DNA from: a virus
UHGV virus genome: UHGV-0335500
Length of the DNA stretch: 10,837 nt
Direction: 5' to 3' (one strand)
Numbering within the stretch: the stretch's first letter is position 1; each line of letters starts with the position of its first letter. Positions 59-10,837 of the stretch are shown piece after piece. Below the pieces are notes generated by a model that worked only from the letters and a program-made list of their open reading frames with translations, ran no database searches and had not been told where the DNA came from. A program made the position numbers and the translations under genes.

Positions 59-214
59 CCAGCTTCACTTCGTCAATACGGTTCTCACTGCACGCTTACG
101 GATAAATTTCCTTCAGCACAAATCATCATTGCTGCGGATAACGACCACAGCGAAGGAAGACAAAACACGGGGAGAATAGCAGCAGAAAAGGCAGCTTTAT
201 CTGTTTCTGGATGG
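59..214 (+). other. Upstream in-frame continuation of the primase reading frame (Toprim-like acidic motif), cut by a TGA at 56-58
   Basis: Manual translation of the frame of the 215 ORF upstream gives PASLRQYGSHCTLTDKFPSAQIIIAADNDHSEGRQNTGRIAAEKAALSVSGW, contiguous with the ORF. IIIAADNDHSEG resembles the Toprim DxD metal-binding motif. No ATG/GTG/TTG exists in this frame between the TGA at 56-58 and the GTG at 215. Confidence 0.5.
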
Positions 215-2080
215 GTGGCATTACCCCCGACAGATCACAAAGCAGACTGGAATGATTACCACCAAAAACACGGCATTAAATGCGCCACAGAAGCGTTCAA
301 TAAGTCAATGTACCAACCACAGGGTAATGGCGTGAAACAGGAGCCACAGACCATTGAGGGAAGCGATTTTAAGGTTATGGATACCGACCCACTGAAACCA
401 AGAATAGAAAGCCGCGAGGATGGTATTTATTGGGTATCTCCGAGAGCTGACAGCCAGAGTGGAGAAATCATCAATAACGAAAGCTGGTTATGTTCTCCGT
501 TAAGCGTTATCGGTACTGGCAGAGACGATAAAGACCAGTATCTCATTCTTCGCTGGCTGTCGTTTGGTTCTGAAACGCCGACAACCGCTGCCATTCCACT
601 GGCTGATATTGGTGAACGTGAAGGATGGCGCACACTTAAAGCTGGTGGGGTAAATGTCACGACCAAAAGCAGCCTCAGAGCAATACTGGCAGACTGGCTA
701 CAACGCAGTGGCTCTCGTGAATTGTGGCGTGTTGCTCATGCCACTGGCTGGCAATGCGGAGCGTACATCATGCCTGATGGGGAAATCATCGGAACACCTG
801 AAAATCCTGTGCTGTTCAGCGGGAGAAGCTCAGCCGCAGCCGGATATACCGTCTCAGGGAGCGCGAAAAGCTGGCGTGATAACGTGGCGCGTCTGGCCTT
901 TGGTAACTATTCAATGATGACCGGGATCGGCGCAGCACTGGCAGCGCCATTGATTGGGCTGGTGGGCGCTGACGGGTTCGGCATTCATTTCTATGAGCAG
1001 TCGAGCGCAGGTAAGACCACCACGGCAAACGTGGCGAGCAGCTTATACGGCAACCCTGATTTACTGCGGCTGACGTGGTACGGAACCGCGCTGGGGCTGG
1101 CAAATGAAGCCGCCGCCCACAATGACGGACTAATGCCGCTTGATGAAGTTGGTCAGGGCGCTGATCCTGTCAGTGTTTCACAGTCTGCCTATGCGTTATT
1201 TAACGGTGTAGGGAAACTGCAAGGCGCTAAAGATGGTGGAAACCGGGATCTAAAACGCTGGCGTACAGTGGCAATCAGCACCGGAGAAATGGATTTAGAA
1301 ACATTTATCGCTACTTCCGGGCGAAAAACCAAAGCCGGGCAACTGGTGCGACTGCTGAATATTCCGTTGAGTAAAGCAGTACGCTTTCACGATTACCAGA
1401 ACGGAAAACAGCACGCAGACGCACTGAAAGACGCTTACCAGCATCACCACGGCGCGTCCGGGCGTGAGTGGATTAAATGGCTGGCAGACCACCAGCAACA
1501 GGCTATTAAAACTGTTCGTGACTGCGAAAGCAGATGGAGAAGCCTGATCCCATCCGATTATGGTGAGCAGGTTCACCGTGTAGCCGCGCGATTTGCCATT
1601 CTGGAGGCCGCATTGTTGTTAGGCGAGGTTGTAACAGGCTGGGATGCTCAGACATGCCGTGATGCGATACAGCACAGCTATAACGCATGGTTGCGCGAGT
1701 TCGGCACAGGTAACAAAGAGCATCAGCAGATTATTGAACAAACGGAGGCATTTCTTAATGCCTATGGGCTTAGCCGTTTTGCACCATTTCCATACAGCCC
1801 GGCAGATTTGCCCATCAAAGATTTAGCCGGATACCGTCAGCGTGGAGAACATGACGAAAGCCCAATGATTTTCTACACATTCCCGGCCACATTTGAAAAG
1901 GAGATCGCATGTGGTTTCAACGCAAAACAGTTTGCTGAAGTGTTGAAAAAAGCCGGGATGCTAACCCCACCAAACAGCGGTCGTGGATACCAAAGAAAAT
2001 CACCACGTATTCAGGGACGACAAATAAACGTTTATGTACTCAATTACCAGCCAGGAGATTACAACTCATCTGAAGAATGA
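215..2080 (+). CDS. P4 alpha-like primase-helicase, C-terminal NTPase/helicase portion (D5_N / DUF927-type); gene looks 5'-disrupted or N-terminally truncated
   Basis: 621-aa ORF from GTG 215 to TGA 2078-2080. Walker A-like motif HFYEQSSAGKTTTANV sits at about 1007-1021. Overall architecture matches my recollection of P4 alpha-type primase-helicases, and the gene is followed immediately by iterons. Confidence 0.8.
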   Translation: MALPPTDHKADWNDYHQKHGIKCATEAFNKSMYQPQGNGVKQEPQTIEGSDFKVMDTDPLKPRIESREDGIYWVSPRADSQSGEIINNESWLCSPLSVIGTGRDDKDQYLILRWLSFGSETPTTAAIPLADIGEREGWRTLKAGGVNVTTKSSLRAILADWLQRSGSRELWRVAHATGWQCGAYIMPDGEIIGTPENPVLFSGRSSAAAGYTVSGSAKSWRDNVARLAFGNYSMMTGIGAALAAPLIGLVGADGFGIHFYEQSSAGKTTTANVASSLYGNPDLLRLTWYGTALGLANEAAAHNDGLMPLDEVGQGADPVSVSQSAYALFNGVGKLQGAKDGGNRDLKRWRTVAISTGEMDLETFIATSGRKTKAGQLVRLLNIPLSKAVRFHDYQNGKQHADALKDAYQHHHGASGREWIKWLADHQQQAIKTVRDCESRWRSLIPSDYGEQVHRVAARFAILEAALLLGEVVTGWDAQTCRDAIQHSYNAWLREFGTGNKEHQQIIEQTEAFLNAYGLSRFAPFPYSPADLPIKDLAGYRQRGEHDESPMIFYTFPATFEKEIACGFNAKQFAEVLKKAGMLTPPNSGRGYQRKSPRIQGRQINVYVLNYQPGDYNSSEE

Positions 2081-2096
2081 GCTTCTTCATGTGCGT

Positions 2097-2215
2097 AGAA
2101 AAGGTGTTGGTTCAGTTGGTTCAGTTGGTTCAATTTGTAAAGAGTATTGTTTTATAAGGATTTTATTCTTTTTATTGAACCAACACTGAACCAACAACAC
2201 GGCATTTTGAACCAA
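2097..2215. repeat. Iteron cluster A: 3 tight direct TTGGTTCA(G/A) repeats, AT-rich spacer, 3 inverted TGAACCAA repeats; ori/crr-like
   Basis: Direct 9-mers at 2107-2115, 2116-2124 and 2125-2133. AT-rich spacer 2134-2174. Inverted copies (C/T)TGAACCAA at 2175-2183, 2186-2194 and 2207-2215. Positions 2101-2144 are the exact reverse complement of 8601-8644. Lies 17 bp after the primase stop. Confidence 0.8.
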
Positions 2216-2315
2216 CACAACGTGACTGAATTGATGAGCACAACATCTGGCTGGCATTAGAGAGTGTTTTACGAAATCTGAACACCACATCACTGGTTTC
2301 AGTGGGAGATTGATG

Positions 2316-2771
2316 ATGAAGATAATCGCAAAGGCTTTTCATCATGTATTTGGCAAAGTATCCGATTTGCCATCTGTAATACCGATGAACAACAGAAGGG
2401 AGATGCTGCTTGATATGGTTGTGTTCCCATACATAGACCTTTCTGAACCAATGAAAGCAACTCTTTTCAGAAAGTATCTTGGCGACTTTAAACGCCGTTT
2501 TACAGGCGTTAACGGGATGGTTGATATCTGCTCCATCAGAGATATTGTTGAACTTGCAGGGATTAATTTGTGGGGAGAAGCGGCAGCAGCATACAAATGG
2601 CTTGAACGCCTGCACTGTGTTTCATTCAGTGACATGAGTGCTGATATCGCTTTAATGGTTCCTCACAAAATCAATATGGTCTTTGCTGGTGGCAATTACA
2701 CTTATCCATGGAACCAGGAACAAAGAGAGAACAGGAAAGCTCACGCCATGAAGAGTAATGCGACTCCATAA
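2316..2771 (+). CDS. Hypothetical protein (151 aa), stand-alone transcription unit
   Basis: ORF track 2310..2771. Shine-Dalgarno GGGAGA at 2304-2309 is best spaced for the ATG at 2316. An intrinsic terminator follows. No motif recognised. Confidence 0.6.
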   Translation: MKIIAKAFHHVFGKVSDLPSVIPMNNRREMLLDMVVFPYIDLSEPMKATLFRKYLGDFKRRFTGVNGMVDICSIRDIVELAGINLWGEAAAAYKWLERLHCVSFSDMSADIALMVPHKINMVFAGGNYTYPWNQEQRENRKAHAMKSNATP

Positions 2772-2823
2772 ATATAGTTTTTAGAGTCCATAAAAAAACT
2801 GTCAAAACCTGACATACAGAACG

Positions 2824-2856
2824 ATGCCACCAGCTACTGAACGGTGGCATTTTTTT
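2824..2856 (+). terminator. Rho-independent terminator after the 151-aa gene
   Basis: Stem ATGCCACC (2824-2831) pairs with GGTGGCAT (2843-2850), 11-nt loop, then a T run at 2851-2856. Just upstream, TGTCA-N5-TGACA (2801-2815) preceded by an A run could terminate on the opposite strand. Confidence 0.6.
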
Positions 2857-2887
2857 GTGCTATTTGTTTCATATTTTGCAATCACAA

Positions 2888-2918
2888 TGATGAATGTTGC
2901 GTTTTATGAAACTATAAT
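2888..2918 (+). promoter_or_regulatory. Putative sigma70 promoter for the 57-aa/489-aa/701-aa operon
   Basis: Perfect -10 TATAAT at 2913-2918. The -35 is weak (TGATGA/ATGAAT near 2888-2895). Located between the upstream terminator and the strong Shine-Dalgarno at 2941-2947. Confidence 0.35.
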
Positions 2919-2951
2919 GACTGTTGTTTTATACAGTTCTAAGGGGGCGTT

Positions 2952-3125
2952 ATGGCTATTTCAGTAAAGCCAGTATTGATAAGTGAGAAGCAAATGGAAG
3001 CGATAAAGAAAATTCAGGAGGAGCAGCGTAAAAAATCAGAGGTAGGAGTTGCGCCAACGATCCACGAAATTGCTCGGGGATTAATGGATAAGGCGCTGGC
3101 TTACACTTTAACTGGACGTGGGTAA
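2952..3125 (+). CDS. Small (57 aa) Lys/Glu-rich protein, possible ribbon-helix-helix DNA-binding protein; first gene of operon
   Basis: Not in the ORF track (under 60 aa). ATG 2952 is preceded by AAGGGGG at 2941-2947. Translation is MAISVKPVLISEKQMEAIKKIQEEQRKKSEVGVAPTIHEIARGLMDKALAYTLTGRG. The strand-helix-loop-helix pattern is by eye only. Stop TAA at 3123-3125 abuts the next start. Confidence 0.5.
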   Translation: MAISVKPVLISEKQMEAIKKIQEEQRKKSEVGVAPTIHEIARGLMDKALAYTLTGRG

Positions 3126-3129
3126 ATCA

Positions 3130-4596
3130 ATGGCTACGTGGCAACAGGGTATTAATTCTGGTGGTTTTCTGGCTGGCATCGGTACGCAAAATGAGAATGC
3201 GCCAAAGGCAAGCGACATTAACGCAACGCTTGGTCTGATCCGCGAAAACAATGAACTGGCTCGCTCAGGTGCAAATAACGTTGCTCTGACAGGTCTTCGT
3301 GGTCTGGCTGGCGTTGCTGATATTTATAAGCAGCAGCAACAGCAGGAGCGTAAAGCGGCATTCCAGAAAGGTTATGCAGATGCTTATGCGTCCGGTGACA
3401 GGGAGCAGATGCGTAATCTTATTACAGCATTCCCAGAAGAGTTTGAGGAAGTCCGTAAAGGGATGAGTTATGTCGATGATGCTCAAAGGGATGATTATGG
3501 CAATCTGGCGCTCAAAGCACAGGTAGCCTCATCGCTTGGTCAGGGCGCATTTGGCAGGTTCATGATGGATAATGAGCAGGAGATGCGTCGTTTAGGTATC
3601 CCTCCAGAAACTATTGCTGAAATGCAGGTTAATGACCCGCAGGGCTTCCAGCATTTCGCAGGTAATCTGGCGCTGTTTTCTCTCGGTCATGAGAAGTATT
3701 TCGATATCAAAGATCAAATGGAAGGTCGGGATATTGAGCGTGGCAAGTTGGCAGAGACAATCCGCAGCAATCAGGCTGGCGAAGCACTTCAGGCGAGAGG
3801 GCAGGATATTAGCCGAGCAAATGCGTTAACGTCAGCATATGCACCAACAGCAGCAATGCAGAATTACAATCAGTACGCTCAAATGTTAAAGGCGGATCCA
3901 GAGGGGGCGGCGGCATTTGCGGCAGCGGCTGGAATTAATACAAACGCCAAAAAATTAATGAGTGTTAGAGAAAACGATGATGGCACTGTCACAAAATACT
4001 ACACAGACGGAAGTGAAGAGCAGGGAAAACTAAACCAGCCAATATCTGGAGATGGGTTTCGTCCAATAGCTTTGCCAACAGCCCAAAAGATCATGGAAAA
4101 GTCGCCAGAAGGGGCTAAAAAAGCTGCTGGATTTGCATACAGGGTTAGGGATGCTCTTGATTCAATAGATACACTGAAAGACCAGCTTAGCCCACAGCGA
4201 GTGGCGATCATTAATAATGCTTTGGGTAATGGGACGCTGGCTAACTTAACGCTCAGCCCAACAGAACAGCAATACGTTGTTAATGCTAATGACGCAATAA
4301 TGGCAATACTCCGTCAGGAAACAGGGGCAGCCATCGTACCTGCTGAAATGTCAAAATATTATCAAATGTATTTCCCTCAGCCTGGCGACTCCACAAAAAC
4401 CATTGATACCAAGCGCCGGAAGATGGAAAACCAGTTCAATTCGCTGAAAGCTGCTTCTGGTCGAGCTTATGATGCTTTGCGGGTTATTTCAGCAGTTGAC
4501 AGAGGAACTTCTTCTTCGTCGCAGACATTGCCGCAATCTGAGCAGGTATCACAGCCAGCAGCCAGCAGTAACTTTTCTTCACTATGGGGTGATTAA
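3130..4596 (+). CDS. Hypothetical Ala/Gln-rich protein (about 489 aa), no recognisable catalytic motif
   Basis: Long ORF (track 3118..4596 from GTG; ATG 3130 preferred). Contains a poly-Gln run (KQQQQQERK) and is predicted to be largely helical and low-complexity. The stop overlaps the next start as TAATG at 4594-4598. Confidence 0.85.
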   Translation: MATWQQGINSGGFLAGIGTQNENAPKASDINATLGLIRENNELARSGANNVALTGLRGLAGVADIYKQQQQQERKAAFQKGYADAYASGDREQMRNLITAFPEEFEEVRKGMSYVDDAQRDDYGNLALKAQVASSLGQGAFGRFMMDNEQEMRRLGIPPETIAEMQVNDPQGFQHFAGNLALFSLGHEKYFDIKDQMEGRDIERGKLAETIRSNQAGEALQARGQDISRANALTSAYAPTAAMQNYNQYAQMLKADPEGAAAFAAAAGINTNAKKLMSVRENDDGTVTKYYTDGSEEQGKLNQPISGDGFRPIALPTAQKIMEKSPEGAKKAAGFAYRVRDALDSIDTLKDQLSPQRVAIINNALGNGTLANLTLSPTEQQYVVNANDAIMAILRQETGAAIVPAEMSKYYQMYFPQPGDSTKTIDTKRRKMENQFNSLKAASGRAYDALRVISAVDRGTSSSSQTLPQSEQVSQPAASSNFSSLWGD

Positions 4597-6701
4597 TGGC
4601 TAAAGCATGGAAAGATGTTATCGCCTCTCCACAGTATCAGGCGTTAGCACCAGAACAAAAAGCGCAGGCTCAGGAGCAATACTTCAATGAAGTCGTGGCC
4701 CCGCAAGCCGGAGAAAGTGTAGAGCAGGCTAAGCAGGCTTTTTATGCTGCCTATCCACTACCATCAACGAATGAAATAGACCGATCCCAATCAGCAACTC
4801 AAAATATTCAACATACATCATCTGATAATTCTCTTGCGTCAGGGTATGCAAAGTTAGCTACTCAGCAAAGAGAGGGGCTTGAGCGTTCAGCAGAACAGGG
4901 AGCCAGTCTTGGGGCTGCGATGCGCGATGCTATAACAGGCGAAAGCCGAATGACTCCAGAGATGGAGAGACTGCAAAATGTCGACCTTGCCCCAGAGTTA
5001 ACCTCACTCAGCATGGATGCTCTAAAAGCTCGATGGTCTCAACTTTTCGGCTCTGACGCATCTCAGGAAAAGATTCTTCAGAGCATGGGAGCGAAATTAA
5101 GGCAGGATGAGAAGGGTAACACTATCGTTTCCCTGCCATCCGGTGATTATGCTCTGAACAAGCCGGGTTTATCGCCGCAAGACGTGGCATCGTTTCTGGC
5201 TAATGCGCTGGCGTTTACACCAGCGGGCAGGGCTGGAACGGTGCTTGGTGCCATAGGAAAATCAGCAGCTACAGATTTAGCACTACAGGGAGCCACTAGC
5301 CTTGCTGGTGGAGAAGATATTGATCCGTTACAAACGGTAATTTCTGCTGGCATTGGTGGTATTGGTAAGGGGCTGGAAAATACAGCGAGTGCGGTTTCGA
5401 GGGCTGTTCGTGGTGATATGTCGCCTGAAGCAAAGGCTGCTGTCGACTTTGCATCGGAAAGAAATCTGCCGTTAATGACCAGTGACGTACTGAAAGATAA
5501 AAACACTGTGCAGAGTCTGGCCCAGAAAACAGGCGAAAAAATTCCTTTTTTTGGAACGGGTACGAACAGGCTGAATCAACAACAGGCTCGGGAAAATCTG
5601 GTCAGAACATATAACGATGGTCTGGGAGGCATTTCAGATAAACAGCTTTATGAGTCTGCTACTAAAGGGCAGCAAAAATTCATTGAGGCCGCAGGTAAGC
5701 GATATAACCGCATAATTGACGCTATGGGGGATACCCCTGTCGACCTATCAAACACGGTAAAAGCTATCGACAATCAGATTGCCGTGTTAAGCCGCCCGGG
5801 CAAATCTCAGGATAGAGCCGCGGTAAAAGTCTTGCAGCAATTTAAAGACGATATCACCAGCGGGCCAAATGACCTGCGTCTGGCGAGGGAAAACAGAACC
5901 GATCTTCGAAAGCGATTTATGGCGTCATCTGACACTGTTGATAAAGATACGCTCCAGAAAGCCAGCGATATTATCTACAAGGCATATACGGCGGATATGA
6001 AAAAAGCCGTAGCCAAAAATCTTGGAGCAGACGAAGCCATTAATATGGCAAGGGTTGATCGCTCATGGTCTAAATTCAATGACATGATGGGAAGAACGCG
6101 CGTTCAAAAGGCAATAGCCAGCGGCAAGGCCACGCCTGAGGATGTAACAAAACTCGTGTTTAGTCAAAGCCCATCAGAACGTTCTCAGCTTTACAGGCTT
6201 CTGGATGACAATGGTAGGCAAAACGCACGAGCAGCCATAGTTCAGAATGCTGTAGATAAGGCGACTGATCCGTCTGGAAATATCAGTGTTGAGAAGTTTA
6301 TTAATGCGTTACACCGGAACAGGAAGCAATCAGCAACTTTCTTTAAAGGCGTGCACGGAAAGGAACTGGACGGCATTATTAAATACCTCAACGATACCAG
6401 ACAGGCGGCAAAGGTTGACGGTCAGAAATTAAACAGCCAGAAACTTTATGGCCTGCTGGTTGGTGGAGGCGCTATAAATGCGGCAGTTCTGGCGGGGATG
6501 CTGAAAACGGCTGCGTTTGTTGTTCCTGCTGCTGGTGCTTTAGGCGGAGCAGCGAAGGCATACGAAAGCCCTGTTATACGAAATGCCTTATTACGTCTGG
6601 CAAATACGCCAAAAGGTAGCACAGCATATGACAGAGCGATCAGTACAGTCACACAATCACTGACCACAGCAGCACAAGCATCGCAAAAGGAAGCTCAATA
6701 A
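4596..6701 (+). CDS. Hypothetical large protein (701 aa) with glycine-zipper-like hydrophobic segments; possibly membrane-interacting
   Basis: ORF 4596..6701, translationally coupled to the upstream gene. Gly/Ala-rich hydrophobic stretches: TVLGAIGKSAATDLALQGATSLAGG, VISAGIGGIGKGL and C-terminal LYGLLVGGGAINAAVLAGMLKTAAFVVPAAGALGGAAKAY. No canonical Walker A or nuclease motif seen. Confidence 0.9.
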   Translation: MAKAWKDVIASPQYQALAPEQKAQAQEQYFNEVVAPQAGESVEQAKQAFYAAYPLPSTNEIDRSQSATQNIQHTSSDNSLASGYAKLATQQREGLERSAEQGASLGAAMRDAITGESRMTPEMERLQNVDLAPELTSLSMDALKARWSQLFGSDASQEKILQSMGAKLRQDEKGNTIVSLPSGDYALNKPGLSPQDVASFLANALAFTPAGRAGTVLGAIGKSAATDLALQGATSLAGGEDIDPLQTVISAGIGGIGKGLENTASAVSRAVRGDMSPEAKAAVDFASERNLPLMTSDVLKDKNTVQSLAQKTGEKIPFFGTGTNRLNQQQARENLVRTYNDGLGGISDKQLYESATKGQQKFIEAAGKRYNRIIDAMGDTPVDLSNTVKAIDNQIAVLSRPGKSQDRAAVKVLQQFKDDITSGPNDLRLARENRTDLRKRFMASSDTVDKDTLQKASDIIYKAYTADMKKAVAKNLGADEAINMARVDRSWSKFNDMMGRTRVQKAIASGKATPEDVTKLVFSQSPSERSQLYRLLDDNGRQNARAAIVQNAVDKATDPSGNISVEKFINALHRNRKQSATFFKGVHGKELDGIIKYLNDTRQAAKVDGQKLNSQKLYGLLVGGGAINAAVLAGMLKTAAFVVPAAGALGGAAKAYESPVIRNALLRLANTPKGSTAYDRAISTVTQSLTTAAQASQKEAQ

Positions 6702-6760
6702 CAGATGACCATGGATGGTTGGCTATAATAGTAATTAGTTTTTTCAAATAGTTATGAACA

Positions 6761-7159
6761 TTAACACTTGCCTTTAACATTGCCGACAAATGAGCCTGTA
6801 AATGAGCCTATATCAGATCGACTAATTGTTCGTGTATGGATCACTTTTCCGTCATTTGAGATTGCCCATGTGACAAGCGTCAGTTGACCATCTCGATAGC
6901 TTCTTCCCATCATGGCATTCGGAGATAGCGGGTAATAATCAATACCTCCACCTATACCATCTTTTGCCAAGATAAGATCCGCCTTCTCTTTACTTATTAC
7001 CAAATGAAAGGTATCTGGTATAGATGATAACTTATAGTTATACCCATCTGAACTTGAGGCTTCTTGTCCTTTCAGATCACCAATAATCCAGCATTCAGCG
7101 TTCGCTCCAAAAGAAGCAAATAATAAACCGGAGACAACCAATCGCTTCAATTGATTCAC
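6761..7159 (-). CDS. Small secreted (periplasmic) protein, about 132 aa with Sec signal peptide; unknown function
   Basis: Lies inside ORF-track 6761..7417 (minus). Preferred start is GTG at 7159-7157, preceded by a strong Shine-Dalgarno AAGGGAGGG. N-terminus MNQLKRLVVSGLLFASFGANA|ECW is a typical signal peptide with an AXA cleavage site. Mature part is about 111 aa with Cys near both ends. Convergent with the 701-aa gene. Confidence 0.65.
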   Translation of the reverse strand: MNQLKRLVVSGLLFASFGANAECWIIGDLKGQEASSSDGYNYKLSSIPDTFHLVISKEKADLILAKDGIGGGIDYYPLSPNAMMGRSYRDGQLTLVTWAISNDGKVIHTRTISRSDIGSFTGSFVGNVKGKC

Positions 7160-7239
7160 ACCAACCCTCCCTTTAGCGTTGTTTAGAATGGCAATCATCA
7201 TATATCCAAGACATGGCATTTGGTACATAGCTTGGGTCG

Positions 7240-7252
7240 GGATTTCAAATCC
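7240..7252. promoter_or_regulatory. 13-bp perfect palindrome GGATTTCAAATCC upstream of the secreted-protein gene; candidate operator
   Basis: Palindrome seen directly, about 80-95 bp upstream of the GTG at 7159 on the minus strand. Confidence 0.35.
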
Positions 7253-7343
7253 GCCCCCGTTGATGGGGTCGTTACAGTACGCGCATATCCGCTTTATGTG
7301 AAACAGGAAGATTTTTCTGATATCACTGCCACAGCAAAACACC

Positions 7344-7367
7344 AATTTCGTGACCAGTACGCGCGCG
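7344..7367. repeat. Dispersed 24-bp repeat, copy R2 (AATTTCGTGACCAGTACGCGCGCG)
   Basis: Shares AATTTC-N2-GA-N2-A-N-TACGCGCGCG with copies at 7631-7656 and 9240-9263. Shorter partial copies sit at 7275-7285 (ACAGTACGCGC) and 7405-7415 (GACCAGTACGC). Confidence 0.6.
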
Positions 7368-7630
7368 AGGGGTATCAGTTGCAAAAAATTTTGCAACTGC
7401 GTCCGACCAGTACGCACACGATGGCGGGGAGCACCATAAAACTGTTCTCTACATAAGACAGAGTGGTGGTGATGTGTTGATTATCGGCGTATATGCGCAC
7501 AGGACGCGCTATGACGATATTTTATGCGGGTACACCAATCACATGTATCTGGTGTGATCAATCGCGTTACATGACATCTCATGTTGTGCTGGTGATTATC
7601 ACGACGTTCTGAATCTGGCCTTTGCCTGAT

Positions 7631-7656
7631 ATTTTGCGACAAGTACGCGCGCGTAG
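7631..7656. repeat. Dispersed 24-bp repeat, copy R4, with perfect palindromic core GTACGCGCGCGTAC
   Basis: ATTTTGCGACAAGTACGCGCGCGTAG. The alternating CG core is self-complementary. Confidence 0.6.
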
Positions 7657-7681
7657 CATCGACAGCATACACATTGGATAT

Positions 7682-7882
7682 TCATTTTGTGACCAATGCG
7701 ATAAGTAGCGGGATAAGAATTGATAAAATCAACAGGACGATGATCCACTTTTGATTCTCGTCCATCTTATCTGCTAGGCGACGCTCCATTCCGTGCATAT
7801 CACCGCGAATGGCAATCATCTCATTGCGAACATCCGAGAAGTGGTTGGCTTGATGTTCAATGTGTGGCGTTCTGCCTTTCAT
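7682..7882 (-). CDS. Small tail-anchored membrane protein (66 aa); possibly XhlA/holin-like
   Basis: ATG at 7882-7880 preceded by Shine-Dalgarno GGTGAGGA. Translation MKGRTPHIEHQANHFSDVRNEMIAIRGDMHGMERRLADKMDENQKWIIVLLILSILIPLLIALVTK has a charged N-terminal part and one C-terminal transmembrane helix. Family assignment is from memory, low confidence. Confidence 0.55.
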   Translation of the reverse strand: MKGRTPHIEHQANHFSDVRNEMIAIRGDMHGMERRLADKMDENQKWIIVLLILSILIPLLIALVTK

Positions 7883-7961
7883 GTCTGATCCTCACCTATC
7901 GTCACCACCTGATGGTGTATAAAGGTATTAGCCCAAGCAGCTTTCCAATGGGCACTCATGT

Positions 7962-8417
7962 TTATACGCTGACCTTACAATCAATCACCGCTTTTAACTT
8001 TTCAGCATTGCTTCCCTGACGCTTCCACGCGCTGTAAATATCTTTATCCCACGCTTTACCAGCTTTTGTTTGATAGCCTGCTTCATTGATCCGTTCAGCT
8101 ATCACACGCCCATTATCAAATCCCTGTTGGATGGTATCGGCAATGATCTTTATAACTGCCGTTTCGTTATATGGTTTTGGTGGGATGTTCGGCTTTCCGG
8201 CAATAAGCGACGCAGCGGCTTTTTCCATGCGCTCCACCAGCCCAAGCATTCGTGAATCAATAGACTTTTCCGGCTGCCCCAGCTTCATGCGAATCGCATC
8301 AACAAGCCAAGAGGTTTTATCTCCTCCAGAAGCGAGAACAGACCGATTAAACTCATCCTGCAATTCAGATGGGATGCGGAACGCGATCAGATTAGATTTG
8401 CTCATTGCAAAGACCAT
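7962..8417 (-). CDS. Ribbon-helix-helix-like DNA-binding protein (147-151 aa)
   Basis: ORF track 7962..8417 (minus); alternative start ATG at 8405-8403 (MSKSNLIAFRIPSELQDEFNRSV...). N-terminus fits a beta-strand plus two helices. Co-directional with and 79 bp upstream of the 66-aa membrane protein gene, so probably one operon. Confidence 0.65.
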   Translation of the reverse strand: MVFAMSKSNLIAFRIPSELQDEFNRSVLASGGDKTSWLVDAIRMKLGQPEKSIDSRMLGLVERMEKAAASLIAGKPNIPPKPYNETAVIKIIADTIQQGFDNGRVIAERINEAGYQTKAGKAWDKDIYSAWKRQGSNAEKLKAVIDCKVSV

Positions 8418-8435
8418 ATCAGTGAGTAATATCCA

Positions 8436-8464
8436 TACAGTATACCACTGTATAACACTGTTAT
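8436..8464. promoter_or_regulatory. Adjacent palindromes TACAGT-N5-ACTGTA and ATAACA-C-TGTTAT upstream of the ribbon-helix-helix gene; candidate autoregulatory operator
   Basis: Inverted repeats read directly at 8436-8452 and 8452-8464, in the 5' region of the leftward gene. Confidence 0.4.
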
Positions 8465-8520
8465 ACGCTCAAATATCAGCCAGAAAATAACAGACCAATC
8501 ACAAATCTATCGCTGTGTTG

Positions 8521-8644
8521 TTGGTTCAGAGCTGGGCTGTGTTGGTTCAAAATGAGTTGATGTTGGTTCAATATTTTAGAAAAAACACAATAAAAACAAC
8601 GCTCTTTACAAATTGAACCAACTGAACCAACTGAACCAACACCT
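8521..8644. repeat. Iteron cluster B: inverted copy of cluster A (3 loose TTGGTTCA at 21-bp spacing, AT-rich spacer, 3 tight TGAACCAA); ori/crr-like
   Basis: TTGGTTCA(G/A) at 8521-8529, 8542-8550 and 8563-8571. AT-rich 8572-8612. (T/C)TGAACCAA at 8613-8621, 8622-8630 and 8631-8639. Positions 8601-8644 are the reverse complement of 2101-2144. Confidence 0.8.
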
Positions 8645-8676
8645 TTTTGCTTATCTATATAATCTGAGAGGCAGAA

Positions 8677-8964
8677 ATGATAAAGGACAGGAAAGCTGAA
8701 GAGCTGGAGTCAAAAGGGCTATACCGGAGAGCTGCCGCACGATGGGCAGAAGTCATGATGCTGGCAGATGGCGATAAAGAACGTGAACATGCAGTAAACA
8801 GACGCTCTGAATGTATCCGTAAGGCGGCACGCCCACCAGCAACTACAGACAGATTCGGAGATTTAAGACAGGCAGTTAAGCGGACTCATTCGGCTCTTGG
8901 TATGGATGAGGAAGCGAGAGGGTACTTCAGGCGTTATCGCGATAAAGATTGCCAGAGACAGTAA
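8677..8964 (+). CDS. PerC-family-like small transcriptional regulator (95 aa)
   Basis: ORF with Shine-Dalgarno GAGG 6 nt before the ATG. AEELESKGLYRRAAARWAEVMM resembles the conserved N-terminal signature of PerC/Pch-type regulators as I recall it. Confidence 0.6.
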   Translation: MIKDRKAEELESKGLYRRAAARWAEVMMLADGDKEREHAVNRRSECIRKAARPPATTDRFGDLRQAVKRTHSALGMDEEARGYFRRYRDKDCQRQ

Positions 8965-9070
8965 TGCTCTCTCTGTTTTGGCAAATTACCCCTCACTTTG
9001 AAGGGATCGGAGCTATAAAAATGGTGTTATCCGGAATCCTCAAATTGAGGATTGTGGAAGAATCAATGGG

Positions 9071-9084
9071 TTAGGTCATCGTGC
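9071..9084. other. Perfect 14-bp palindrome GTGCAAATTTGCAC in the junction region
   Basis: Read directly. Sits among other hairpin-capable repeats, for example AATCCTCA-N3-TGAGGATT around 9036-9054 (approximate) and GCCAACG-N8-CGTTGGC around 9090-9115. Confidence 0.4.
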
Positions 9085-9239
9085 AAATTTGCACTCTGCC
9101 AGCCAACGCAATTTCTCGTTGGCGGAAATATCAGGTATTTACTGAACGAACGGTCTACCAGTCTGTTCAGTTACCAGTTGCACATGGCTGTTTCATGTGA
9201 GAACGGAGGTTTTTTTCGGACATCGCTATTGGGTACAGC

Positions 9240-9263
9240 AATTTCACGAGCAATACGCGCGCG
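9240..9263. repeat. Dispersed 24-bp repeat, copy R5 (AATTTCACGAGCAATACGCGCGCG)
   Basis: Same motif as 7344-7367 and 7631-7656, about 1.6 kb away in the junction region. Confidence 0.55.
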
Positions 9264-9348
9264 CAGGACAACAAGCCTGAACATGGTTACACACCTCGAT
9301 CCTGAGGGATGTAGACAATGGCTTCTGACCAAAGCACCCGAAAAAACC

Positions 9349-9370
9349 GTGTACATAAGGGTGTACATAA
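9349..9370. repeat. Tandem direct repeat GTGTACATAA-GG-GTGTACATAA; possible recombinase arm-type or regulator binding sites
   Basis: Two identical 10-mers at 9349-9358 and 9361-9370. Confidence 0.45.
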
Positions 9371-9480
9371 TCAAAAATCGCATTAGCAAGAAACCAGCCA
9401 CAATGCGGCATTGAAGCCAACACTCTACAAACAGATTCAGAGTAACTCGTAACACTAATTCTTACTTTTCAGCCTTCACA

Positions 9481-9512
9481 AATGCCGCCCACTCAAACAG
9501 AGCGGCATTTTT
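9481..9512 (+). terminator. Rho-independent terminator-like hairpin upstream of dinD
   Basis: AATGCCGC (9481-9488) pairs with GCGGCATT (9502-9509), 13-nt loop, followed by a T run. Confidence 0.5.
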
Positions 9513-9604
9513 CTTCCCCGCAACTTCAATTCTGTTTTGCGTGCCTGCTCCAGATTTTGCGATGTTTTTTTGCCCAGCACACTGAGAACGTGAGATACTC
9601 ACAA

Positions 9605-9620
9605 CTGTATATAAATACAG
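9605..9620. promoter_or_regulatory. LexA (SOS) box in the dinD promoter
   Basis: CTGTATATAAATACAG matches the CTGT-N8-ACAG LexA consensus and sits 45 bp upstream of the dinD ATG. Confidence 0.8.
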
Positions 9621-9665
9621 TTACAGATTTACTTTCTTTGCAATCGATATCACATGGAGTGGGCA

Positions 9666-10490
9666 ATGAACGAACATCATCAACCTTTTGAAGAAATACG
9701 GCATTATGGCACTGAAGGGCAAGAATTTTGGTCAGCTAGAGAATTGGCACCGTTACTGGATTATCGGGACTGGCGCAATTTTCAAAAGGTACTGGCCCGC
9801 GCGACTCAAGCGTGCGAAGCCAGCAATCAAGCTGCATCTGACCATTTCGTTGAAACCACCAAAATGGTTGTATTAGGTTCAGGGGCTCAACGAGAACTTG
9901 AAGATGTTCATCTCTCCCGCTATGCCTGTTACCTGGTAGTACAAAACGGCGACCCTGCGAAACCGGTTATTGCGGCAGGGCAAACTTATTTTGCTATCCA
10001 GACCCGACGGCAGGAGCTGGCTGACGATGAAGCTTTCAGGCAACTTCGTGAAGACGAAAAGCGTCTTTTTCTGAGAAATGAATTGAAAGAACATAACAAA
10101 CAATTGGTTGAGGCAGCGCAGCAAGCTGGGGTAGCGACAGCTATCGATTTCGCCATATTTCAGAATCATGGTTACCGGGGGCTGTATGGTGGATTAGATC
10201 AGAAAGCCATCCATCAGCGGAAGGGGCTGAAAAAGAGTCAGAAGATCCTGGATCATATGGGTTCAACAGAACTGGCGGCTAATCTCTTTCGAGCTACCCA
10301 AACAGAAGAAAAACTCAAGCGGGATGGCGTGAATTCAAAACAGCAAGCAAACACCACACACTTTGACGTGGGTCGCAAGGTGAGGCAAACCATTCAGGAA
10401 CTTGGCGGAACCATGCCTGAGGAGTTGCCGACCTCGCAGGTCAGCATCAAGCAGTTGGAAAACAGTGTAAAAATTACAGAGAAGAAATAG
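9666..10490 (+). CDS. dinD: DNA damage-inducible protein D (DinD), 274 aa
   Basis: ORF track 9654..10490. ATG 9666 (MNEHHQPFEEIRHYGTEGQEFW...) is preferred because GGAGTGGG precedes it. Identity rests on recalled E. coli DinD and the LexA box upstream. Confidence 0.8.
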   Translation: MNEHHQPFEEIRHYGTEGQEFWSARELAPLLDYRDWRNFQKVLARATQACEASNQAASDHFVETTKMVVLGSGAQRELEDVHLSRYACYLVVQNGDPAKPVIAAGQTYFAIQTRRQELADDEAFRQLREDEKRLFLRNELKEHNKQLVEAAQQAGVATAIDFAIFQNHGYRGLYGGLDQKAIHQRKGLKKSQKILDHMGSTELAANLFRATQTEEKLKRDGVNSKQQANTTHFDVGRKVRQTIQELGGTMPEELPTSQVSIKQLENSVKITEKK

Positions 10491-10780
10491 CAGAAACTAA
10501 AAACTCTTTTTGTTGATTGAGATACCCGATGCGTAAGCCAAAGTCCAGGTGCGGTGAACACAATGGCTAACATTGCACCTTTCTTTTCCACCCCTCAGTT
10601 TTAACCTACTTTTTCTTATGTATTTTCTCAGACAAGAAGTCAGAAGAATGCATCTACGCTACAGAAAACAACGATTTCACATAACTAAAAATTATCAATT
10701 TCCTCTCACCTTAAAAAATCTCAATCGTGACAATGCGTACAAATCGCTACCCTGCCAGACAGATTTTTAGGGAGAGAACC

Positions 10781-10837
10781 ATGCTGTTACACATTTTGTA
10801 TTTGGTTGGCATTACTGCCGAAGCCATGACGGGGGCG
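10781..10837 (+). CDS. yicG: 5' end of inner-membrane protein YicG (UPF0126 family), runs off the window
   Basis: ATG 10781 preceded by GGGAGAG. MLLHILYLVGITAEAMTGA matches my recollection of the YicG N-terminus, and yicG follows dinD in E. coli K-12. Confidence 0.6.
   Translation, partial: MLLHILYLVGITAEAMTGA

What the first reader, a model, noticed from the sequence alone, without database searches (positions are those of the whole stretch)
8965..9620. Island-backbone junction directly upstream of dinD
The region between the PerC-like gene and the dinD LexA box has no convincing ORF but is dense in hairpins, a tandem GTGTACATAA repeat (9349-9370), a copy of the 24-bp repeat and a terminator-like hairpin. 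In E. coli K-12, as I recall, yicC lies immediately upstream of dinD, and no YicC-like coding sequence is present here. So the island either sits between yicC and dinD or has displaced yicC, a site with no tRNA gene that I know of, which is unusual for P4-type integrases. The tandem 10-mers may be arm-type recombinase sites marking the attachment site.
Basis: partly seen in the sequence, partly recalled or inferred. Interest (0 to 1): 0.4.

Follow-up and report, generated by a model that had tools for sequence, protein, structure and literature searches.

The report
Right attachment site of a yicC-integrated satellite island
The stretch is the right-hand attachment site (attR) where a phage-satellite-type island has integrated into the last codons of the E. 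coli gene yicC, which is an ordinary and already recorded integration site, but its crossover core has lost 7 bases as part of a deletion series seen across strains.

Summary
Island DNA runs to window 9431. Positions 9432-9445 (CAGATTCAGAGTAA) are a shortened copy of the last 21 bp of yicC. From 9446 the sequence is the native yicC-dinD spacer, with the yicC terminator and the dinD LexA box.

In related genomes yicC is intact about 16.6 kb away, directly followed by a tyrosine integrase that has an arm-binding domain. The island carries its own copy of the last yicC codons and a replacement terminator.

The GTGTACATAA pair (9349-9370) recurs in the same 12-bp register beside the integrase gene. 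All six TGTACA in the 16.6-kb island lie in these two clusters. Four metagenome contigs carry the predicted joined form (attP). The 10-mers are therefore very probably arm-type integrase sites.

The island is an EcCIMP1-like PICI with a different integration module, and yicC's 3' end is a published target. About 23% of complete E. coli genomes are interrupted there.

The less ordinary result is that 19 of 20 distinct attR sequences carry deletions of 2-16 nt. All start right after CAGAT(T/C)CA and recur on different backbone alleles. This probably marks the integrase cleavage point and may lock the islands in place. Positions 8965-9340 are conserved, palindrome-rich DNA of unknown role.

The parts
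8677..8964 (+). PerC-family regulator gene, the last gene of the island (context)
   Evidence: Pfam PF06069 PerC, E = 5.5e-33. Annotated as a PerC family regulator in relatives.
9035..9053 (+). Hairpin downstream of the PerC gene, terminator-like in relatives. It is the only hairpin with covariation support.
   Evidence: CCTCA-AAT-TGAGG in the window becomes CCTGC-ATT-GCAGG or CCCCC-AAT-GGGGG in relatives. Three pairs show both-side changes. It is followed by TTTT in most relatives but by ATTGTGG in the window.
9081..9171 (.). Three invariant palindromes or hairpins of unknown role: GTGCAAATTTGCAC at 9081-9094, GCCAACG/CGTTGGC at 9102-9123, and ACTGAAC/GTTCAGT at 9141-9171
   Evidence: Read from the sequence. 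Predicted in both strand folds. They are invariant in 14 homologues, so there is no covariation test.
9235..9267 (+). Fourth copy of a direct repeat with a (CG)4 core (ACAGCAATTTCACGAGCAATACGCGCGCGCAGG), function unknown
   Evidence: Repeat families D1 and D4. Invariant in 14 homologues. The other three copies lie in the unannotated block 7234-7662, which is 95.6% conserved in EcCIMP1.
9341..9431 (+). P arm of the attachment site, the island-derived side of attR
   Evidence: In islands with different cargo (L007, L008) similarity to the window begins only at the A run before the first 10-mer. The segment is nearly invariant across 29 attR/attP sequences.
9349..9358 (+). Arm-type site P1 (GTGTACATAA), a putative integrase N-terminal-domain binding site
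9361..9370 (+). Arm-type site P2 (GTGTACATAA)
9432..9445 (+). Shortened attR core, CAGATTCA|GAGTAA. It is the last 21 bp of yicC (CAGATTCAGAATATTGAGTAA in the matching native allele) minus 7 nt (GAATATT).
   Evidence: Comparison with attB alleles and with attL. Programmatic single-deletion fit. Alignment.
9446..9665 (+). Native yicC-dinD intergenic spacer (B' side), untouched by the insertion
   Evidence: Megablast identity to island-free genomes starts at window 9440-9443. Matches K-12 sequence L001 2507-2726.
9481..9516 (+). Native yicC intrinsic terminator, now separated from yicC by the island
   Evidence: The same hairpin and T run follow the yicC stop codon in K-12.
9605..9620 (+). dinD LexA box, CTGT-N8-ACAG (backbone)
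   Evidence: Read from the sequence. Identical in K-12.
9666..10490 (+). dinD (context)
   Evidence: RefSeq annotation of matching loci.

Best explanation
Window 9341-9445 is attR, the right attachment site of a roughly 16.6-kb EcCIMP1-like phage-inducible chromosomal island. A P4-type tyrosine integrase inserted it into the last 21 bp of yicC.

The island's attP carries its own copy of the last seven yicC codons and stop (CAGATTCAGAATATCGAATAA), followed by a replacement terminator. After integration yicC therefore stays intact at the left junction (attL). The displaced native yicC end, its terminator and the dinD control region lie at the right junction, which is this window.

The two GTGTACATAA 10-mers, 83 bp left of the core, are arm-type sites bound by the integrase's N-terminal arm-binding domain. 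Four further TGTACA sites lie on the other arm, 30-80 bp upstream of the integrase start codon. From there they could also let the integrase regulate its own gene. This is an inference by analogy with IntS of the KplE1 prophage, recalled from the literature and not looked up here.

Strand exchange most likely takes place within core positions 1-11. Positions 2-8 (AGATTCA) are the best fit.

In this window the backbone-derived half of the core has lost 7 nt. Identity with attL is reduced from 21 bp to CAGATTCAGA plus TAA, which probably impairs excision.

Shown: the junction position, the empty site, the shared core, the motif distribution, the existence of attP junctions, and the deletion series. 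Inferred: integrase binding to the 10-mers, the exact overlap region, and loss of excision competence.
For: Junction and empty site:
- Island-free genomes match the window only from 9440-9443 onward.
- A 201-nt K-12 probe centred on the yicC stop is continuous in 4192 of 5426 complete genomes. In the sampled genomes where the probe is not continuous, the match ends exactly at the yicC stop (probe position 101) or resumes at probe position 81-84, the left edge of the core.

Far end of the island:
- In strains ISHS7, OkiPb01689, E8, SFE8 and 99-3165, yicC is intact and a tyrosine integrase gene starts 189 bp after its stop codon.
- attL is invariant in these five: CAGATTCAGAATATCGAATAA|GCTATCAG, followed by a terminator and four TGTACA motifs.
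- That core allele occurs in an unoccupied site in only 1 of 5426 genomes, so it is island-borne.
- The attR cores carry the local native allele.

Integrase: Pfam Arm-DNA-bind_3, Phage_int_M and Phage_integrase.

Arm motifs:
- All six TGTACA in the 16.6-kb island fall in the two clusters flanking the core, against about 4 expected anywhere in the island.
- Diverged relatives from other hosts keep all four left-arm motifs at the same spacing while the intervening bases change. The replacement terminator shows compensatory changes.

attP:
- Contigs L033, L041, L045 and L054 join the right arm, one core and the left arm.
- In the three contigs that carry both arm pairs (L033, L041, L054) the pairs are 211-212 bp apart, against 212 predicted. 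L033 and L041 cross the junction with more than 12 kb of permuted island.

Overlap region:
- Core position 6 (T or C) segregates both ways in attL/attR pairs from single contigs: OJXM01000087 has C in attL and T in attR, and OQNI01000071 the reverse.
- Positions -1 and 12 never segregate in this way.

Family: the primase region is 98.7% identical to EcCIMP1 and several protein accessions are shared (PMC11773190).
Against: - The window itself contains neither attL nor the integrase gene, so its own island is assumed to resemble its relatives. These are ISHS7, 99.6% identical over window 100-10836, and SFE8, which has the same attR allele.
- No binding or cleavage data exist.
- TGTACA is a palindrome and could be the operator of another protein.
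- No exact or gapped attP junction was found in the viral contig collection.
- The attP junctions in metagenome contigs could come from tandem arrays rather than free circles. L054's contig, at 24.5 kb, is longer than one island.
- One attP (L054) differs at core positions 3-5, which does not fit an overlap region of positions 2-8 unless that copy is defective.
- No IHF consensus was seen in the 61-bp spacer on visual inspection.
Confidence: 0.85

Rival explanations
1. The junction in this particular window is a dead scar. The 7-nt loss in the core has made attR non-recombinogenic, so the island is a locked, vertically inherited remnant and not a mobile element. This concerns the state of the site, not its origin.
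For: Identity with attL falls from 21 bp to 10 bp plus TAA. 19 of 20 distinct attR sequences are truncated in the same place. One truncated island, 99-3165 with an 11-nt loss, has also lost its PerC gene and most of its primase gene, consistent with decay after locking.
Against: SFE8, which has the same attR allele as the window, keeps an intact 417-aa integrase gene and a full island. If the overlap region is positions 2-8, it and the left core half are still present in attR. The nearly identical island in ISHS7 sits on a different backbone allele with a full-length core, so the lineage was mobile recently.
Confidence: 0.5
2. The GTGTACATAA repeats are not integrase arm sites. They would instead be operators for another island protein, such as the AlpA-type excisionase/activator or the antirepressor system, that controls integrase expression and excision directionality.
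For: The motif core TGTACA is palindromic, as is typical of dimeric HTH operators. Four copies lie just upstream of the integrase start codon, where a promoter is expected. An AlpA-family gene lies about 2.3 kb from attL.
Against: The motifs lie on both arms at distances typical of arm-type sites: 83 bp left and 108 bp right of the core. Three of the six copies are exact GTGTACATAA in direct orientation and a fourth differs by one base. Only one, P'4, is an exact inverted copy. The integrase carries a dedicated arm-binding domain that needs such sites.
Confidence: 0.12
3. The attR deletion series comes from ordinary neutral decay or replication slippage at a now non-coding duplicate of the yicC end. 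It would be unrelated to integrase action and would carry no information about the cleavage site.
For: The attR copy of the yicC end is non-coding and unconstrained. Several deletions have 1-2 nt of microhomology at their ends, for example GA...GA for the window's 7-nt loss.
Against: Every deletion has its left end at core position 8-11, and none extends left. Between alignment columns 55 and 293 only two other columns contain gaps, and both are native backbone polymorphisms. The same 2-nt and 11-nt losses recur on different backbone alleles. Neutral decay should also give substitutions and scattered indels.
Confidence: 0.25
4. The whole interval 8965-9660 is native backbone present in island-free strains.
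For: None. Positions 9446-9660 are native.
Against: K-12 and 4192 other genomes run directly from the yicC stop codon into the sequence equivalent to 9446 onward. Only 182 genomes cover at least 80% of window 8600-10837, the stretch from the PerC gene through dinD.
Confidence: 0

Closest known systems
EcCIMP1, a PICI of E. coli MP1 mobilised by the P22-like phage Kapi1 (PMC11773190)
   Same: Same island family. The primase region is 98.7% identical over 2.2 kb. The 430-bp repeat-bearing block is 95.6% identical and the PerC upstream region 87.7%. Gene order is the same: int, AlpA-type HTH, antirepressor, DUF4222, Ash, primase, ejection-protein genes, PerC. Several protein accessions are identical.
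   Different: EcCIMP1 integrates at tRNA-Thr with a different integrase and a 10-bp core, TCCTATTATC (PMC11773190). The window's 8761-9433, the integrase and the att module have no counterpart in EcCIMP1. The integration module has been swapped.
Reference PICIs integrated in yicC, and prophage-like elements recorded at yicC/dinD in E. coli O157:H7
   Same: Same target locus. The preprint 10.1101/2022.07.18.500453 states that reference PICIs integrate into yicC and that their identity blocks 'drift'. PMC9997748 lists the yicC_dinD intergenic region as a prophage site in clade 8. PMC7609406 lists a 15.4-kb element P19 at yicC.
   Different: In the passages I read, those papers do not describe the arm-type sites, the 21-bp core or the anchored deletion series. 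I did not compare sequences with their elements.
yicC-specific integrative mobilisable elements: MGIVflInd1, MGIVmi1, and SGI1-like IEs such as IEEcoMOD1 (PMC8409611)
   Same: They integrate at the 3' end of yicC by a tyrosine integrase while preserving the gene.
   Different: They are mobilised by conjugative plasmids or ICEs and carry mpsA/traG/traN-type genes. None of these is annotated in this island. Integrase homology to Int_yicC was not tested.
Lambda/P4/KplE1-type attachment sites: core flanked by arms with arm-type integrase sites
   Same: A core identity block, arm-type repeats on both arms unrelated to the core, the integrase gene next to one arm with sites overlapping its upstream region, and reconstitution of the 3' end of the target gene.
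   Different: The target is a protein-coding gene end and not a tRNA. The arm motif (GTGTACATAA) is specific to this family. Binding and the accessory factors (IHF, excisionase) are untested.
Locking of the Aux3 island in pandemic Vibrio cholerae by loss of site-specific recombination (PMC7721734)
   Same: A precedent for a host lineage retaining a useful island by disabling its excision.
   Different: I read only that paper's title and the start of its abstract, so how Aux3 recombination was shut down was not checked. Here the integrase gene is kept and the change is a short deletion in the attR core.

Membership tests
Tyrosine-recombinase attachment site (attR of an integrated element) | An uninterrupted empty site (attB) exists in genomes lacking the element | tested here: met
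   4192 of 5426 complete E. coli genomes have a continuous yicC stop-to-spacer sequence. K-12 sequence.
Tyrosine-recombinase attachment site (attR of an integrated element) | Direct repeat (identity block) at both ends of the element that matches attB | tested here: met
   A 21-bp block, 19/21 identical between attL and attR in ISHS7. In the window and in SFE8 only CAGATTCAGA plus TAA remain. The window's own attL lies outside the window.
Tyrosine-recombinase attachment site (attR of an integrated element) | Tyrosine integrase gene adjacent to one end | tested here: met
   A 417-422-aa integrase gene starts 189 bp after the yicC stop in five relatives. Pfam Phage_integrase, E = 6.9e-17. Not in the window itself.
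Tyrosine-recombinase attachment site (attR of an integrated element) | Arm-type repeats on both arms, distinct from the core, together with an integrase that has an arm-binding domain | tested here: met
   Two TGTACA motifs on one arm and four on the other. None elsewhere in the 16.6-kb island. Conserved in diverged relatives. Pfam Arm-DNA-bind_3, E = 7.3e-20.
Tyrosine-recombinase attachment site (attR of an integrated element) | The joined form (attP) occurs in nature | tested here: met
   L033, L041, L045 and L054 carry right arm, one core and left arm. A free circle cannot be distinguished from a tandem array.
Tyrosine-recombinase attachment site (attR of an integrated element) | Integrase binds the sites and cleaves at defined positions in the core | not testable with these tools
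   Only indirect evidence: segregation of core position 6 and the anchored deletions.
Phage-inducible chromosomal island (PICI), EcCIMP1-like | Size of 10-20 kb with an int, AlpA-type regulator and primase/replicase gene order | tested here: met
   16.6 kb in ISHS7. The order is int, HTH (Pfam Phage_AlpA, E = 6e-06), antirepressor, Ash, TOPRIM/DUF927 primase.
Phage-inducible chromosomal island (PICI), EcCIMP1-like | Sequence homology to an experimentally mobilised PICI | tested here: met
   98.7% identity over the primase region and further blocks shared with EcCIMP1.
Phage-inducible chromosomal island (PICI), EcCIMP1-like | No phage structural or lysis genes | tested here: inconclusive
   No capsid, tail or lysis genes are annotated, but two or three P22-type DNA-ejection protein genes are (window 3118-6701). 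EcCIMP1 has the same genes.
Phage-inducible chromosomal island (PICI), EcCIMP1-like | Induced, excised and packaged by a helper phage | not testable with these tools
   Shown for EcCIMP1 with phage Kapi1 (PMC11773190), not for this island.
P4-type integrase element | Integrase with the domains Arm-DNA-bind_3, Phage_int_M and Phage_integrase | tested here: met
   The closest phage-record integrases are at most 34% identical.
P4-type integrase element | Integration into the 3' end of a tRNA gene. This is typical of the family, not obligatory. | tested here: not met
   No tRNA gene in the window. The target is the 3' end of the protein-coding gene yicC.
yicC-specific integrative mobilisable elements (MGIVflInd1 / SGI1-like IEs) | Integration at the 3' end of yicC | tested here: met
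   PMC8409611.
yicC-specific integrative mobilisable elements (MGIVflInd1 / SGI1-like IEs) | Conjugative-mobilisation genes (mpsA, traG, traN, sgaC or oriT mimic) | tested here: not met
   None is annotated in five related islands. The gene content is that of a PICI.
yicC-specific integrative mobilisable elements (MGIVflInd1 / SGI1-like IEs) | Integrase in the Int_yicC clade | not tested
   Sequences of those integrases were not retrieved.

The most novel reading that the evidence does not exclude
The attR core of yicC-integrated PICIs is a recurrent, polar deletion hot spot created by the integrase itself. Abortive cleavage at the boundary between core positions 8 and 9 would be repaired with loss of 2-16 nt on the backbone side. 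The deletion series would then map the cleavage site from genome data alone. It would also show stepwise, integrase-driven self-immobilisation of satellites across E. coli, to which survivor selection for non-excising islands could add.
Probability: 0.35. Interest if true: 0.55.

Novelty: already known. Interest (0 to 1): 0.28.

Why it matters
As a junction it is ordinary. It tells an annotator where the island ends (9431/9432) and that yicC, its terminator and the dinD SOS control region are all intact. It also shows that the island is an EcCIMP1-type satellite with a swapped integration module.

The comparative work adds a usable map of the attachment site: a 21-bp core, six arm motifs and a replacement terminator. 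It also adds a candidate strand-exchange region.

The deletion series could matter more widely. If the integrase causes it, public genomes already hold a natural footprint of its cleavage position. They would also record how often satellites become fixed in their hosts. That bears on how long PICI-borne traits such as PerC-type regulators and phage interference stay in a lineage.

Tried and rejected
- Rfam at a permissive threshold found nothing in the region. The only hits were two chance miRNA matches at the iteron cluster near 2100.
- The consensus promoter/terminator scan of 8400-9700 found no sigma-70-like site and one weak minus-strand terminator-like site at 9409-9397. It missed the yicC terminator because of its 13-nt loop.
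- Translating the mechanical ORFs in 8949-9455 gave nothing protein-like. The repeat copies do not share a reading frame that makes sense.
- Exact and gapped searches for the attP junction in the viral contig collection found nothing. The arm-pair pattern there hit only two prophage predictions that are attR copies.
- The same pattern found nothing in the one-genome-per-species collection.
- tblastn of the integrase against phage records gave no close relative, at most 34% identity, so no deposited phage attP could be used.
- RNAalifold on 14 homologues of 8965-9348 gave covariation for one hairpin only. The rest is too conserved to test.
- I considered a 2-nt-shorter attP as the source of the common GA loss. 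I rejected it because every complete attP observed (L033, L041, L045, L054) has CAGAATATCG.
- I considered spread of one deleted ancestor by homologous recombination. I rejected it as the sole cause, because the first backbone polymorphism lies 2 nt from the deletion on three different alleles.
Full report
**What is in the interval.** I read 8400-10837 and listed ORFs, repeats and tRNAs.
- The PerC-family gene ends at 8964 (Pfam PerC, E = 5.5e-33).
- dinD starts at 9666, behind a canonical LexA box at 9605-9620.
- Between them lie two exact GTGTACATAA copies (9349-9358 and 9361-9370). They contain the only two TGTACA hexamers in the whole window.
- Positions 9235-9267 are one copy of a 29-nt direct repeat with a (CG)4 core. 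The other copies start at 7339, 7405 and 7625.
- There are several palindromes, and a hairpin plus T run at 9481-9516.
- Positions 8965-9433 fold better than every one of 100 shuffles on both strands (z = -3.4 and -3.9).
- There is no tRNA gene and no Rfam family in the region.
- RefSeq annotation of four relatives places no gene between the PerC gene and dinD. The fifth, the decayed island of 99-3165, has only a 46-aa hypothetical called in the backbone spacer.

**Where the island ends.** Against 5426 complete E. coli genomes, window 8600-10837 is fully covered in 182. Island-free genomes match only from window 9440-9443 onward, and the match begins at the end of their yicC annotation. In K-12 the order is yicC, a 220-bp spacer, then dinD. 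The sequence after the yicC stop codon equals window 9446 onward, including the hairpin at 9481-9516, which is thus the native yicC terminator. A 201-nt K-12 probe centred on the yicC stop is continuous in 4192 genomes. In the sampled genomes where it is not continuous, the match ends exactly at the stop codon or resumes 21 bp before it. About 23% of complete genomes therefore carry something at this point.

**The far end and the shared core.** The best match to the whole window is strain ISHS7, at 99.6% over window 100-10836. There, and in OkiPb01689, E8, SFE8 and 99-3165, yicC is intact and a tyrosine integrase gene begins 189 bp after its stop codon. The window starts inside the island's primase gene, about 7.2 kb beyond that yicC.

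In ISHS7 the last 21 bp of yicC are present at both ends:
- attL: CAGATTCAGAATATCGAATAA
- attR: CAGATTCAGAACATTGAATAA

The two cores are separated by 16,601 bp.

attL is identical in all five genomes. It is followed by island sequence carrying a strong terminator and four TGTACA motifs. Unoccupied sites carry other synonymous alleles: AACATCGAATAA, AACATTGAATAA, AATATTGAATAA and AATATTGAGTAA. The attL allele AATATCGAATAA occurs in an unoccupied site in only one genome. The right-hand 10 nt of the attL core (TATCGAATAA) therefore come from the island. The island brings its own yicC end and terminator, and the attR core carries the native allele of each host lineage. The window's core, CAGATTCAGAGTAA (9432-9445), equals the AATATTGAGTAA-type native site minus GAATATT. 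Strain SFE8 has the same allele.

**Arm-type sites.** The integrase has Pfam Arm-DNA-bind_3, Phage_int_M and Phage_integrase domains.
- The window's pair CCGTGTACATAAGGGTGTACATAATC, 83 bp left of the core, recurs as GCGTGTACATAGAGGTGTACATAATG 108 bp right of the attL core.
- The attL pair is followed by ATGTACATTG and by TTATGTACAC. The latter is the exact reverse complement of the 10-mer. These sites end about 30 bp before the integrase ATG.
- In the 16.6-kb ISHS7 island all six TGTACA lie in these two clusters, with about four expected anywhere in the island.
- In diverged relatives, whose yicC sequences show they come from other hosts, all four left-arm motifs keep their spacing while the bases between them change. 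The replacement terminator changes by compensatory substitutions.
- In islands with unrelated cargo, similarity to the window starts only at about 9341, just before the first 10-mer.

The attachment module is therefore 9341-9445, and 8965-9340 belongs to this island's cargo. The reading of the 10-mers as arm-type integrase sites is well supported comparatively but is untested biochemically.

**The joined form exists.** A scan of metagenome contigs with the arm-pair pattern gave 44 loci. Three contain both arm pairs on one strand 211-212 bp apart, against 212 predicted. A fourth, a short contig that holds only the left arm pair, shows the same junction. All four read right arm, one core (CAG ATY CAG AAT ATC GAA TAA, or a variant), then left arm and the integrase gene. 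Two of them continue for more than 12 kb as a circularly permuted island. These are attP junctions, from free circles or from tandem arrays. Searches for this junction in the viral collection found nothing.

**Where strands exchange.**
- Core position -1 is always host-type in attL and island-type in attR.
- Position 12 is always island-type in attL and host-type in attR.
- Position 6 (T in E. coli attB, C in two attP copies) appears in both configurations in attL/attR pairs from single contigs.

This is the behaviour expected of a base inside the overlap region. It places the exchange within positions 1-11.

**The deletion series.** I found 29 attR copies. These comprise the window, five genome loci, two prophage predictions from the viral collection and 21 metagenome loci. 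They contain 16 alleles, and only two are full length. In an alignment of 20 distinct 290-nt attR segments, 19 have a gap that begins immediately after CAGAT(T/C)CA and extends 2-16 nt to the right. Elsewhere between columns 55 and 293 only two columns contain gaps, and both are native polymorphisms. The 2-nt loss (GA) occurs on three different native alleles and the 11-nt loss in four contexts. Four alleles need two steps. All 24 attL cores are full length, as expected because they encode the YicC C-terminus.

In a sample of complete genomes whose arm sequence matches the window exactly, roughly a quarter of rows still read CAGATTCAGAA. The rest stop at position 8, 9 or 10.

A polar, recurrent, anchored series is not what neutral decay predicts. 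The simplest mechanistic reading has three parts:
- The overlap region is positions 2-8 (AGATTCA).
- The right-hand cleavage falls at 8|9.
- Failed cleavage events are trimmed on the backbone side.

Survivor bias for islands that can no longer excise may add to this. One attP copy (L054) differs at positions 3-5 and does not fit unless it is defective. None of this can be tested here. A 2022 preprint already remarks on 'attB drift' of identity blocks for PICIs in yicC (10.1101/2022.07.18.500453), which is probably the same phenomenon seen through an automated pipeline.

**The rest of the interval.** Fourteen homologues of 8965-9348 (83-100% identical) were aligned. The hairpin at 9035-9053 shows three covarying pairs and is followed by TTTT in most relatives. 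It is probably the PerC terminator, weakened in the window. Two relatives carry a 43-54-nt duplication of this unit. From 9075 to 9340 the sequence is almost invariant, so its palindromes and the repeat copy cannot be tested for structure. Their role is unknown: protein binding sites, packaging or replication signals are all possible. This segment is absent from EcCIMP1. The block 7234-7662, which holds the other three repeat copies, is 95.6% conserved in EcCIMP1 and is unannotated in both.

**What kind of element this is.** Gene order and content in the relatives are int, AlpA-type HTH, antirepressor, DUF4222, Ash, TOPRIM/DUF927 primase, P22-type ejection-protein genes, and PerC. This matches EcCIMP1, a PICI mobilised by the P22-like phage Kapi1 (PMC11773190). 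There is 98.7% identity over the primase region. EcCIMP1 uses a different integrase and tRNA-Thr, so the integration module has been exchanged. That fits the paper's remark that integrase, AlpA and PerC are the variable parts.

The 3' end of yicC is a documented target for PICIs (10.1101/2022.07.18.500453), for prophage-like elements in O157:H7 (PMC9997748, PMC7609406) and for conjugatively mobilised islands (PMC8409611). The last group has different gene content, and their integrases were not compared.

**Verdict.** The finding is a correct identification of an ordinary feature: the attR junction of a known kind of island at a known site. The claim that a non-tRNA target is unusual does not. 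dinD regulation should be unaffected, because the whole native spacer is retained. The only part with some specialist interest is the anchored deletion series at the attR core, of which this window is one member.

Noticed in passing
window 2099-2219 and 8512-8647: There are two clusters of the 9-mer GTTGGTTCA/TGAACCAAC, each cluster internally inverted. One sits just after the primase stop codon and the other just upstream of the PerC gene. They include a 55-nt inverted repeat that is 96% complementary, and together they bracket the 6.4-kb ejection-protein cargo. They resemble replication iterons or shared operators. Both clusters also match EcCIMP1.
   Followed up: partly
window 3118-4596 and 4596-6701: The island encodes P22-type DNA-ejection (injection) proteins, and some relatives also encode a DUF2824 protein and a lytic transglycosylase. 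Virion internal proteins are unexpected cargo for a satellite. They fit a P22-like helper such as Kapi1 (PMC11773190).
   Followed up: no
window 7234-7662: This is an unannotated 430-bp block holding three copies of the 29-nt (CG)4-core repeat. It is 95.6% conserved in EcCIMP1 and unannotated there as well. Function unknown.
   Followed up: partly
L020 8418-8843 and L039 7708-8144 (homologues of window 9030-9075): Two metagenome relatives carry a 43-54-nt tandem duplication of the unit 'hairpin plus AATGGGTTAGG' downstream of the PerC gene. The two copies have different, internally compensated stems.
   Followed up: no
NZ_CP148426.1 721718-721751 (strain Z1323CEC0014): This is the only one of 5426 genomes with the island-type core allele (AATATCGAATAA) in an apparently unoccupied yicC-spacer context. 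It could be a natural polymorphism or a trace of a past integration and excision cycle.
   Followed up: no
yicC stop codon in E. coli genomes generally (L001 2486-2506): About 1230 of 5426 complete genomes are interrupted at this site, but only 412 carry this window's arm sequence. Other element families must therefore share the same 21-bp target.
   Followed up: no
L026, L028, L037 (metagenome attR copies): In these loci the attR core is followed by GCGACATATCTCCGTAGGCC... and not by the yicC-dinD spacer. Some complete genomes match the window only over yicG (H27-H29). In strain 19KM1831 (H26) BRO and DnaD genes are annotated under the match in place of dinD. The backbone downstream of yicC is itself variable.
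   Followed up: no
L046 near 7893-7915 and L030 near 5112-5134: A diverged lineage has the core CAGATTCAAAATGTGGAGTAA, matching another host's yicC end. L046 appears to be its attP, because non-yicC sequence lies left of the core. The island-borne copy of the yicC end therefore tracks the host's yicC sequence.
   Followed up: no
L006 (strain 99-3165) 9728-20030: The island with the 11-nt attR loss has also lost its PerC gene, most of its primase gene and part of an ejection-protein gene. This is consistent with decay of an immobilised island.
   Followed up: no
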